From Octopus vulgaris (Eukaryota): a stretch of DNA of 64,000 nt. A model generated the notes under the pieces. That model worked only from the letters and a program-made list of their open reading frames with translations. It made no database searches and was not told the DNA's origin. A program made the translations under genes and the position numbers. The stretch is from assembly GCA_951406725.2 (NCBI GenBank), contig OX597829.1, positions 25,358,001 through 25,422,000 on the forward strand, given 5' to 3'. Positions 13,201 through 16,200 of the stretch are shown piece after piece. Within the stretch, counting starts at the first letter, position 1. The number at the start of each line of letters is the position of its first letter.

Positions 13201-16200
13201 GGGTCTTTGTGCCAGGTGATGAGAGGTCATAAGAATGGCCATTCATCAATAACACACACACAAATATATACAGACGAAATTATAGTCAACTGTTTATATG
13301 AGTGATATATCTATTTATTTTAATTCTTTTTACCTATCTTTCTATCAGATCTTCACTCTACATTATAAAGCTTTAAAATACATTAGTGATAACTGAAATA
13401 CAAGTTTCATGTGGCATCATGTGGCATATCTCAATACCCACCCTTCTTAGCAATCAAGGGCCATGCATTTCTTGATAATCTCCCTTGAATTTATTAAATA
13501 ATTTAGGTTACTTAATATACCATATCTCTCTTCCTTACCCCTTTCTTACACCCTACATAAACATCCTCCATGTGCCTGTGCTCCCTGTTGATACTAAAAT
13601 TAGCCAATTTAGGTTTATGGGTATTCTGATTAAACCCCACAAAAAGTGTGAAGGGAGTGTTTCCTAATGTAGAGGAAAGACAAGGATCTTATCACAATAA
13701 TATATTACTGTCCTGTAATAAAAGAGCAATAACTACTCTAAAATAAAGCTGATGCAGCAGTAATGGTATTGCCACACACACACACACACACACATAAATA
13801 TACACATTCACTAAGTCCATTCTCTCAGCAAAACCACGTATACAATATGACAATTATCCTAGCAAACATCAACACCTGTCATGTTGGGACTGTAGAAAGT
13901 TGGGCTTGTGTCAGGTGTATACAACAACCGTCATTTAGCAACTCACCCCCACCCCCACGACCACCGTCGCTGCCATGACGACGACGACCACCACCACCAC
14001 TGTCGCCGGTGCCGCCACCAGCAGCAGCAGCACCACCACCAGCAGCAGCAGCAGCACCACCACCACCACCACTGCTACTGCATGATATTTGCAGATGTTC
14101 TCAATCCCGAATGCCTACATGACAAAGATTAAAATCCTAGATAAAGTGGCTTTACTTGTGTGAGAGAAACTTGTGTACTCAGTGCTAACAATGATATAGT
14201 TCGGTATTTGATAAATTAACAGAGAAGCAGAACTTCGTGTGTGATAGGTGTAAAGGAGTTGTAAGCAATATGAATAGCTATGAAAAGTTCAAGAGCTGCT
14301 TAAACAGATCCTTAGGTGTATTAGTTAGTTAGCTTATGTTATCTCTGGGATCTGATTATAACTGCACGTAGTGTTGTATGAAGTGAAAGTAGAGTTGTAA
14401 GAGAAAGATGTTTAGGGGCTGTGACCTTTGTTTACAAAAACAAAAAAAAAGAGTTGTGTGAAACAACCATGTGTTTTTACAAACAGATATGTCAGAGCAA
14501 GCAATTCAGGAAGCTGTGACCTCAGTTTATAAAAAAAAAAAGGTGGTAGTTCTTCTCTTTATGGAAGATTGGGGGTGAGGGGGGAAGTTATCCTCAGATG
14601 AGAGACTTGGCCCAAATATTTGCAACAAAAAGTCCCAAAGGACTAAGTGGGATGTTAAACTAGGTGGTGGATTAAGTCTAGAAATTAGAGGTGAAACAAC
14701 ATGGACATTAAAGAGGCAAGTTGAAGAGATTATGGACAGAAACGAGGCAGCTATAATCAGTTGGATTGTGTAGACATGTATGGAAGACAGAGTACAAAAA
14801 TGAACTGGGTGAGTTTCTGGAGATTTACTTTTTTTTATACTAATCCACTGGAAACTGATCTTGGGCCTAAGCTACCATTTAAAGTGATTTACATTTAAAC
14901 TTTTCATAAAATTTTTATGTTTATATAGTTCTATATTTAAGCGATGAGGAATTATGCACATTATTTACATTATTTACAATTGACAGATATTTGTCCTCAT
15001 CTTGTTTGTTGTTAACACAACGTTGTTGCTGATATATACTCCAGCCTTCATCAGGTGTCTTGGGGAAATTTCAAACCTGGGTTCTCATTCCTAAGGTATT
15101 TTTTGATGTTGTTATTATTATTATTCAGGTCACTGCCTAGAATTGAACTCGGAATCTTGGGGTTAGTAGCCCACGCTCTTAACCACTACGCCATATGCCT
15201 GTGGTTCCATGGGCATATGTGACCTGAATAATAATAATAATAACAATAACAAACATCGAAAAATACCTTAGGAATGAGAACCCAGGTTCAAAATTTCTCC
15301 AAGACACCTGAAGAAGACTGGAAGGTACATCAGCTGAAACATTGTGTTAACAACAAACAAGATGAGGACAAATATCCATTGAATGAAAATAATGTTTTAT
15401 GTATTTGTTTTGCAAGACTCTTGATGTGAAACCATATATTGAAACAGATATTGCCATACTTGGGGATGATAATATTTTGCTAATTAAACACATGCACTAC
15501 ACTGAAGTGAAGACCTACTATTTAATTGGCAAAATATGACCAAGTACAACAATATCTTTCCGCTAAAATTTAAGTTTCAAGCACCAACTTAATAATGACA
15601 AAGTTTGTCATTATCATCATTCAATGTCTGACTTCCATGCTGGCATCAAAGTTACTTTTCTAAATTTTTCCTTATTTTCAAAATTTATTGAAACAAAGCA
15701 TATTTCGGCAGAAATATGGTGGCAAAATGGTTATCTAATGTGCTGGTATGATTACATGATATGAATGGGTGAAGAGTGCTGAATATAGAAGCTATGTGTA
15801 ATGAGGGATCAAGGAAGACATGAGAGGAAGAAGTAAAGTCAGATCTCAGGATGTTGGGACTAACAGATGAGATAATGGATCAAAAAGAACATTAGCTTAA
15901 ATTGTAGACCTGTTCAACCATAAAATGAAAATAGACATTGCAACAACACTGAAATGATGAATTAGCTTCAATGAATTTCTAAATGTTCATTTACTTTTAT
16001 AATGTAAACCAATGAATTAATTAAAGCCAGCACTACATGTTTCCTAAATAAATGAATGAATAGACAACAGCTGCAGGAAAGTAAGACACAGAATAGAAAA
16101 TATGAAAAGAGATATTAAAGTCAATAGTTTGAATGATTCAATTATATAGGAACACTTTATTTCAGAAATATAGATTATATTAAGAAAAACTTATATCATT

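What the first reader, a model, noticed from the sequence alone, without database searches (positions are those of the whole stretch)
14927..15395. Second, oppositely oriented copy shows the palindrome-plus-tail structure is the mobile unit
Seen: the same arms and the same tail recur 3.4 kb away, with the tail on the other side, a different centre (gcc-tgtggttccatg-ggc) and independent mutations. The flanks ttttatgt on both sides may be a decayed TSD. Inference: the foldback is not a one-off local rearrangement. It is either generated at each insertion or propagated as a hairpin intermediate.
Basis: partly seen in the sequence, partly recalled or inferred. Interest (0 to 1): 0.7.

Follow-up and report, generated by a model that had tools for sequence, protein, structure and literature searches.

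The report
Palindromic Penelope-type retroelement in octopus
The two mirror-image repeats are separate insertions of a small non-coding octopus jumping element, built in the already described fold-back-plus-tail shape of Penelope-like retrotransposons; only its tRNA-like front end is unusual.

Summary
11034-11537 and about 14925-15394 are two independent head-to-head insertions of one unit of about 280 nt. Copy 1 has an exact 13-bp target-site duplication (TSD) at 11021-11033 and 11538-11550. Copy 2's TSD is decayed (10 of 12 matches), and the two sets of flanks are not collinear. Each arm reads: tRNA-like head with Pol III A/B boxes, an (AAT)n tract, a decayed minimal type I hammerhead ribozyme, and, on one arm only, a 31-33-nt tail. 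An inverted 5' copy, a palindromic junction, a one-sided 30-40-nt tail, a TSD and a minimal hammerhead are the published architecture of Penelope-like elements (PLEs). Translations of the element match Octopus gene models, and 7 of 120 related predicted proteins read through an inverted arm into a sense arm. The within- versus between-copy test is mixed. Head CpG variants and a snap-back trace favour inversion at insertion. Two body sites (p about 0.08-0.10) group arms across copies. The possible novelty is a Pol III, tRNA-headed SINE-like element driven by PLE machinery. No autonomous partner was found, and genome-wide counts could not be made.

The parts
14913..14924 (+). copy 2, left TSD candidate (12 bp; first 8 exact, 2 mismatches to the right copy)
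14925..14957 (-). copy 2 tail, 31-33 nt, 3' end of the full arm; pairs back on sequence downstream of the hammerhead (8-bp stem)
   Evidence: P0003 ends with the same residues
14958..14975 (-). 9-bp tandem duplication at the pre-tail site, where both inverted arms stop
15014..15059 (-). copy 2 full arm: decayed minimal type I hammerhead (helix I, core and 5' side of helix II intact; GAAA box mutated)
15108..15125 (-). (AAT/AAC)n tract of copy 2 full arm
15126..15199 (-). copy 2 full arm: tRNA-like head; exact A box starting at 15193, B box 34 nt after it
15200..15212 (+). copy 2 junction: 8-nt spacer (6 nt complementary to 15181-15186) plus CCATGG
15210..15394 (+). copy 2 inverted, tail-less arm; 59-bp deletion removes most of the head; damaged hammerhead at about 15303-15348
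15395..15406 (+). copy 2, right TSD candidate
11021..11033 (+). copy 1, left TSD (13 bp, exact), inside the 3' end of another dispersed repeat
11034..11258 (-). copy 1 inverted, tail-less arm (head 11183-11258; 21-bp deletion in the hammerhead 3' half)
11255..11262 (.). copy 1 perfectly palindromic junction (axis 11258/11259, no spacer)
11259..11334 (+). copy 1 full arm: tRNA-like head with A/B boxes
11335..11367 (+). (AAT/AAC)n tract of copy 1 full arm
11416..11458 (+). copy 1 full arm: minimal hammerhead (core at 11421, helices I and II intact, 3-nt deletion at the cleavage triplet)
11506..11537 (+). copy 1 tail, 32 nt
11538..11550 (+). copy 1, right TSD (13 bp, exact)

Best explanation
Both structures are independent insertions of a non-autonomous, non-coding Penelope-like (PLE) retroelement of octopus. 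The unit is a tRNA-like Pol III head, an (AAT)n tract and a PLE pseudo-LTR 3' part (minimal hammerhead, stem-loop, tail). SHOWN in sequence: head-to-head arms, a one-sided 31-33-nt tail, a shared stop point of both tail-less arms, 12-13-bp TSDs, a decayed minimal hammerhead and A/B boxes. INFERRED from PLE biology: the RNA is copied in trans by the RT and GIY-YIG endonuclease of an autonomous hammerhead-bearing PLE. Staggered nicks give the TSD. Reverse transcription starts internally at the tail end. The other end is set at the pre-tail site, matching the two RT start sites that bound the tail in the anole PLE. At the RNA 5' end the cDNA folds back on the self-complementary CCATGG leader and primes the inverted arm, or two cDNAs primed at the two nicks anneal there. 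Later deletions (21 and 59 bp) erode the palindrome. My odds: PLE derivative about 0.9; inversion made during insertion about 0.6; Pol III transcription from the head about 0.6.
For: (1) Architecture matches passages on PLEs: inverted 5'-truncated copy plus a 30-40-bp tail at either end (PMC8557442); inverted pLTR, 31-bp tail, 8-10-bp TSDs and palindromes at head-to-head junctions read as self-priming (PMC3846280); tail equals the distance between two RT start sites, and both strands are cleaved and extended (PMC11167929). (2) The column majority of the arms has a complete minimal-hammerhead core with a 5-bp helix I, 5-bp helix II, an extra nucleotide after position 9, a G10.1-C11.1 pair and palindromic 15.2-16.2. 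These are the PLE min-HHR traits in PMC4209133. A core-plus-two-helix descriptor gave 1 hit in the window (2 with a longer loop) against a mean of 0.0 in 40 Markov windows. (3) Exact 13-bp TSD. (4) Copy 1's two heads share 3 same-direction CpG-to-TpG states while both keep their body CpGs: p<=0.002 at a decay rate of 0.35 and 0.016 at 0.5. (5) Six nt of copy 2's spacer are complementary to its own A-box region (chance 0.02), a snap-back trace. (6) 7 of 120 related predicted proteins read an inverted arm then a sense arm, all head-to-head, with varying centres (5 by tblastn, 0 after shuffling; 2 more by motif). (7) Exact A box plus B box occurs once in the window, here, and 0 times in 30 Markov windows. 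ARAGORN at lowered threshold 80 of 3 heads against 15 of 600 shuffles.
Against: No single arm has an intact hammerhead (0 hits with a strict descriptor). Rfam's hammerhead models do not match at E<=10. The majority at 16.2-17 rests on two arms plus a tie-break. Rfam tRNA scores only 17.2 bits, below the gathering score of 29 (E 7.9), and default ARAGORN finds nothing. No autonomous PLE was linked: 0 RT/EN-length true hits among 2 plus 4 plus 118 protein hits. In the body, within-copy identity (90.3%, 85.8%) is no higher than between copies (85.8-91.1%). There are 0 within-copy shared body variants, and 2 of 2 informative sites group arms across copies. TSDs of 12-13 bp are longer than the 8-10 bp in the passages read. 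The absence of a T4 terminator on the sense strand is uninformative (P about 0.45).
Confidence: 0.78

Rival explanations
1. Still PLE-driven, but the palindrome is inherited whole from an already palindromic master (read-through transcript or hairpin intermediate). The tail is trimmed from one end or the other at each insertion, and the heads are homogenised near the centre afterwards.
For: Both informative body sites group right arm with right arm and left with left. One derived allele (codon read as K) appears in 0 of 11 related proteins (R 8, S 2, C 1). Copy 1's left arm ends with 4 nt that continue the 9-bp duplication found only in copy 2's left arm. Both centres share CCATGG. P0010 appears to carry tail sequence on both arms.
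Against: Under a star model, 2 such sites arise by homoplasy with p=0.079 (0.10 for any one split). Conversion between neighbours 3.4-3.9 kb apart would also give this pattern. Centres differ among copies, and the copy 2 spacer looks like fresh snap-back synthesis.
Confidence: 0.27
2. The tRNA-like head is a passenger: a 5'-truncated PLE copy that landed in an AAT tract behind a tRNA-derived fragment. The element is transcribed by read-through or Pol II, so it is a short PLE derivative and not a true Pol III SINE. This is compatible with the best explanation except for the promoter.
For: PLE-group elements favour microsatellite targets (passages in PMC8557442). P0010's palindrome lacks head and AAT tract. 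A search with a frame spanning head and body found 0 of 539 candidates. A Pol III transcript from one arm has no nearby programmed terminator other than chance T4 runs.
Against: Both window copies end at the first bases of the tRNA-like region, where a Pol III start would be (3 full heads plus 1 remnant). The A box is exact and the B box spacing is tRNA-like.
Confidence: 0.3
3. An ordinary LINE-driven tRNA SINE whose inversion comes from L1-style twin priming.
For: tRNA-like head, TSD of 12-13 bp, and LINE relics in the window (zf-RVT, E 0.005). L1 twin priming is recalled, not looked up.
Against: No poly(A) or simple-repeat 3' end: the repeat tract is internal. Twin priming from one RNA inverts the 5' part without duplicating it (recalled), whereas here both arms carry the same sequence. 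The 3' part is a PLE-type hammerhead with a one-sided tail.
Confidence: 0.04
4. A fold-back or MITE-type DNA transposon with long terminal inverted repeats.
For: Near-palindromic 470-504-bp unit with a TSD. A different palindromic MITE-like element lies at 61764-62293.
Against: The termini are not inverted repeats: one end carries a 31-33-nt tail, on a different side in each copy. The ribozyme and Pol III boxes point to an RNA intermediate. Relatives occur as direct tandems (15 of 120).
Confidence: 0.03
5. One-off local inversion followed by segmental duplication, or an assembly artefact.
For: The only two copies in 64 kb lie 3.4 kb apart.
Against: Different TSDs. In 8 flank comparisons, 6 scored within the shuffle range and 1 was marginal (29 against a maximum of 28). 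The remaining one (52) is a dispersed repeat with copies at several other window sites, not collinear with the element. Arms differ by 9-14%, which excludes a read artefact.
Confidence: 0.02

Closest known systems
Endonuclease-bearing Penelope-like elements (Penelope/Poseidon, Neptune, Nematis): inverted pLTR plus tail insertions (PMC3846280, PMC8557442, PMC11167929, PMC8969392; passages or parts read)
   Same: Head-to-head inverted copy, palindrome at the junction, 31-33-nt tail on one side, short TSD, minimal type I hammerhead upstream of the tail, reading frame open through hammerhead and tail.
   Different: No RT/EN ORF between the repeats. The repeat begins with a tRNA-like Pol III head and (AAT)n. 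The TSD is 12-13 bp against 8-10 bp in the passages read. Clade of the partner is not determined.
Schistosoma hammerhead SINE-like retroposons (Sm-alpha/Sj-alpha; review PMC6765202, passages)
   Same: Pol III promoter followed by a hammerhead; non-coding; repetitive.
   Different: Described as head-to-tail tandems that self-cleave to monomers. Here the copies are head-to-head pairs with a PLE tail and TSD, and the hammerhead is of the minimal PLE type.
Animal non-LTR retrozymes (PMC7229834, passages; bioRxiv 10.64898/2026.07.22.740005, part 1 of 5 plus passages)
   Same: 170-400-nt non-coding unit with a type I hammerhead, proposed to be a non-autonomous PLE derivative.
   Different: Defined as direct tandem repeats that yield circular RNA. 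Not tandem here. The preprint has 0 mentions of tRNA or octopus.
Octopus tRNA-derived SINEs OK/OR1/OR2 (Ohshima and Okada 1994; seen only as a reference and one citing sentence in PMC4758252)
   Same: tRNA-derived head in an octopus genome.
   Different: OR2 is cited as a CORE SINE. No sequence was available for comparison, so identity with OK or OR1 is untested.

Membership tests
Penelope-like element (EN+), insertion architecture | Inverted 5'-truncated copy adjacent to the main copy, head-to-head | tested here: met
   2 of 2 copies
Penelope-like element (EN+), insertion architecture | 30-40-bp tail on one end only | tested here: met
   32 nt and 31-33 nt
Penelope-like element (EN+), insertion architecture | Short target-site duplication | tested here: met
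   13 bp exact in copy 1; 10 of 12 in copy 2
Penelope-like element (EN+), insertion architecture | Minimal type I hammerhead in the pseudo-LTR (short helix I, extra nucleotide after 9, G10.1-C11.1, palindromic 15.2-16.2) | tested here: met
   Complete in the column majority, decayed in each of 4 arms; no Rfam hammerhead hit
Autonomous Penelope-like element | ORF with telomerase-like RT and GIY-YIG endonuclease | tested here: not met
   No ORF of 90 aa or more within either insert; the element is non-autonomous
Non-autonomous PLE derivative | 3' end shared with an autonomous PLE of the same genome | tested here: inconclusive
   Protein-level searches found no RT/EN protein joined to this frame; no eukaryotic DNA collection was available
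tRNA-derived SINE | tRNA-related head with Pol III A and B boxes at the 5' end | tested here: met
   Exact A+B at 15193 (-), 0 in 30 Markov windows; ARAGORN ps80 3 of 3 against 15 of 600 shuffles; Rfam tRNA 17.2 bits, under the cut-off
tRNA-derived SINE | Transcribed by RNA polymerase III | not testable with these tools
   needs RNA or ChIP data
tRNA-derived SINE | LINE-derived 3' end with poly(A) or simple-repeat tail | tested here: not met
   The repeat tract is internal; the 3' end is hammerhead plus PLE-type tail
Non-LTR retrozyme | Direct tandem repeats, each with a complete type I hammerhead | tested here: not met
   Arms are inverted, not tandem
Non-LTR retrozyme | Circular RNA intermediate and self-cleavage | not testable with these tools
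   needs RNA assays
Fold-back / MITE DNA transposon | Terminal inverted repeats reaching both termini | tested here: not met
   One terminus carries an unpaired 31-33-nt tail
Octopus SINEs OK/OR1/OR2 | Sequence identity to the published families | not testable with these tools
   Original paper and sequences not held; only a citing sentence was seen

The most novel reading that the evidence does not exclude
A Pol III-transcribed, tRNA-headed SINE that uses Penelope-like rather than LINE machinery and inserts, as a rule, as a complete self-folding palindrome of about 500 bp. Two RNAs paired through the hammerhead's palindromic helix III would be copied by the RT dimer from both nicks, one from each RT start site, and joined at the CCATGG leader. 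This would explain arms of one insertion carrying different alleles. A high-copy family of this kind would give thousands of natural replicates for resolving how PLE inversions and tails form. It would also be a self-contained source of long dsRNA in octopus, whose high hyper-editing is tied to dsRNA abundance (PMC5625713, passages).
Probability: 0.2. Interest if true: 0.7.

Novelty: new variant of a known kind. Interest (0 to 1): 0.36.

Why it matters
Two things give it some value. First, in 9 literature searches I found no report of a tRNA-headed, PLE-tailed element inserting as head-to-head pairs, nor of this octopus family. The library lacks most subscription papers and Repbase/Dfam entries, so it may already be catalogued. 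Second, how PLE inversions form is called undefined in PMC8557442. Each copy also folds on itself into about 190-206 bp of predicted pairing, which is relevant to A-to-I editing in octopus if transcribed.

Tried and rejected
Rfam, whole window at gathering scores: 0 hits. Rfam at E<=10 over 10900-15600: only chance hairpin hits and a sub-threshold tRNA, no hammerhead family. Default ARAGORN: 0. Folding z-scores of the individual hammerhead and head segments were not significant (z from -1.2 to +2.0). The hammerhead energy line was mis-indexed by one base and is void; it was redone. The strict minimal-hammerhead descriptor gave 0 hits because every arm is damaged. Two exact-pattern scans of bacterial and archaeal genome contigs, hoping for stray host DNA with further copies: 0 and 0. 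Protein search with the antisense frame spanning head and body: 0 of 539 candidates. Pfam on 10 window ORFs: no family above its cut-off and no PLE RT or GIY-YIG. Lack of a T4 run on the sense strand was rejected as evidence (P 0.43-0.48). P0086 (EGF-repeat-like) and the 1237-aa P0105 are treated as chance hits but are left in the n=120. The organisms of P0004-P0120 stay unknown because the name look-up could not be made. The metagenome and viral contig collections stayed unchecked, and no eukaryotic genome collection was on offer, so copy number, solo-arm frequency and the partner PLE are open. Supplements (PLE consensus files of PMC8557442, min-HHR alignments of PMC4209133) were not opened and may hold octopus PLE families that bear on the partner question. 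Rejected explanations: segmental duplication, MITE, LINE-driven SINE.

Full report
Observation. The flagged stretch is a fold-back of about 470 bp (about 14925-15394), and a relative of 504 bp lies at 11034-11537. Each has two arms head-to-head. One arm runs 31-33 nt further (the tail): rightwards in copy 1 and leftwards in copy 2. Profile searches of the whole window found these four arms and no others. Copy 1 is flanked by an exact 13-bp duplication (11021-11033 and 11538-11550), reached by 0 of 400 random and 1 of 400 AT-matched position pairs. The TSDs differ and the flanks are not collinear: 6 of 8 comparisons fell within the shuffle range, 1 was marginal, and 1 was due to a dispersed repeat. 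These are two independent insertions.

Anatomy of an arm, read outwards from the centre. (i) A 76-nt tRNA-like head. The only exact A-box plus B-box pair in the window is in copy 2 (15193, minus strand), against 0 in 30 Markov windows. ARAGORN at lowered threshold 80 of 3 heads, against 15 of 600 shuffles and 10 of 600 random window pieces. Default ARAGORN and Rfam's cut-off are not reached (17.2 bits, E 7.9). The box consensus used is recalled. (ii) An (AAT/AAC)n tract of 18-33 nt. (iii) A hammerhead ribozyme. The core at 11421 was the only hit of a core-plus-helix-II scan, and the predicted fold shows helices I and II. The column majority has a full minimal type I motif with the extra nucleotide after position 9, the G10.1-C11.1 pair and palindromic 15.2-16.2, the traits listed for PLE hammerheads in PMC4209133 (passages). 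Every individual arm is damaged, and Rfam's hammerhead models do not hit. (iv) A stem-loop closed by the tail. Both tail-less arms stop within 4 nt of the same pre-tail site. The centres share CCATGG. Copy 1 has no spacer; copy 2 has an 8-nt spacer and a 59-bp deletion in the right-hand head.

Origin and relatives. The open frame through hammerhead and tail matches gene models of Octopus sinensis and O. bimaculoides, so the family is an octopus repeat that gene predictors sometimes exonise. The window's species was not determined. A profile search gave 118 hits, 120 proteins in all. None is an RT/endonuclease protein carrying this frame. Seven of 120 read an inverted arm and then a sense arm, all head-to-head (5 by tblastn, 0 after shuffling; 2 more by motif), and 15 of 120 show direct tandem units. 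One (P0010) belongs to this family. It has a different, head-less centre and probably tail sequence on both arms. The other six belong to a sister family. These are lower bounds, because only stop-free frames appear, and the source organisms are unknown.

In the body, within-copy identity is 90.3% (124 columns) and 85.8% (141); between copies it is 90.5, 89.1, 91.1 and 85.8%. Of 120 four-way columns, 2 are informative, and both group right arm with right arm. One of the two shared alleles is absent from 11 of 11 related proteins. A star-model simulation gives p=0.079 for this split and 0.10 for any single split. Copy 1's left arm also ends in 4 nt that continue a 9-bp duplication present only in copy 2's left arm. 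Against this, copy 1's two heads share three same-direction CpG-to-TpG states although both keep their body CpGs (p<=0.002 at decay rate 0.35; 0.016 at 0.5). Copy 2's second head is deleted, so the reciprocal check is impossible. Six of the 8 spacer bases in copy 2 are complementary to its own A-box region (chance 0.02), as snap-back synthesis would leave. On balance, inversion during insertion is favoured (about 0.6) over inheritance of a ready-made palindrome (about 0.27). Conversion between the neighbours, or two different RNA templates per insertion, would reconcile both signals.

Mechanism. The sequence features above are shown; the steps that follow are inferred. The RNA, probably a Pol III transcript, is bound in trans by an autonomous PLE protein. 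Staggered nicks give the 12-13-bp TSD. The two ends correspond to two internal start or stop sites one tail-length apart, as measured in vitro for the anole PLE, which cleaves and extends both strands (PMC11167929, parts 1-2 of 4 read). The inverted arm is primed at the palindromic leader, as proposed for rotifer PLEs whose head-to-head junctions carry palindromes (PMC3846280, passages).

Comparison with what is known. An inverted 5' copy and a 30-40-bp tail at either end are described as typical of PLEs (PMC8557442, passages; PMC8969392, passages). Non-autonomous hammerhead derivatives of PLEs are known as tandem retrozymes (PMC7229834, passages; bioRxiv 10.64898/2026.07.22.740005, part 1 of 5 and passages). 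Pol III-plus-hammerhead repeats are known in Schistosoma, also in tandem (PMC6765202, passages). The element works like an EN+ PLE insertion. It is not an autonomous PLE, a tandem retrozyme, a LINE-tailed SINE or a MITE (membership table). Passages of PMC10886601, PMC6962438, PMC4758252, PMC6431247 and bioRxiv 10.1101/596502 added no prior description. Nine searches found no tRNA-headed head-to-head PLE derivative, but repeat databases and most subscription papers were not covered.

Verdict. The tRNA-like head on an ORF-less PLE palindrome makes it a new variant. It has moderate value as a test system for how PLE inversions form and as a possible dsRNA source in octopus (PMC5625713, passages). 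Interest 0.36.

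Noticed in passing
window 1411-3907 (hammerhead about 3635-3735, + strand): A second, unrelated hammerhead (core at 3639, very long AT-rich helix II, GUC triplet) lies inside a 2.5-kb, roughly 25-27% GC unit. The unit is bounded by 164-bp inverted repeats at 95.7% and (TA)n flanks, with internal direct repeats (1923-2280/3213-3586) and a SINE inserted at about 2810-3215. It looks like a younger PLE-type insertion of another family; no ORF above 95 aa.
   Followed up: partly
window 61764-62293: A 530-bp palindromic element with 84% complementary arms reaching both termini and no hammerhead core; MITE- or Tc1-like by recall.
   Followed up: no
window 18285-19408: Head-to-tail dimer of a unit of about 560 bp (79% identity), each unit bounded by (AAT)n.
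   Followed up: no
window 63248-63823: Dispersed direct repeat of 150-170 bp at 87% identity, 400 bp apart.
   Followed up: no
window 10996-11033: Copy 1 inserted into the 3' end of another dispersed repeat also present at 16702-16736 and 35689-35723.
   Followed up: yes
window 15446-15557: Weak palindrome (68%) just right of copy 2.
   Followed up: no
window 46428-47155, 16923-17435, 5581-5958: Broken LINE-like ORF remnants: zf-RVT at E 0.005 for the first; the other two are assigned by recalled motifs only.
   Followed up: partly
proteins P0001, P0002: Copies of the element form the first exon of Octopus gene models (O. sinensis LOC115224785 isoform; O. bimaculoides dystrobrevin beta isoform). 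The match ends at the GT just before the pre-tail site, which suggests a splice donor there (inferred).
   Followed up: partly
proteins P0005, P0007-P0120 (most): An abundant sister hammerhead family with a 43-codon tandem unit and inverted 5' copies dominates the protein hits; organism unknown.
   Followed up: partly
window 8052-8409: 23-bp minisatellite, 15.6 copies.
   Followed up: no
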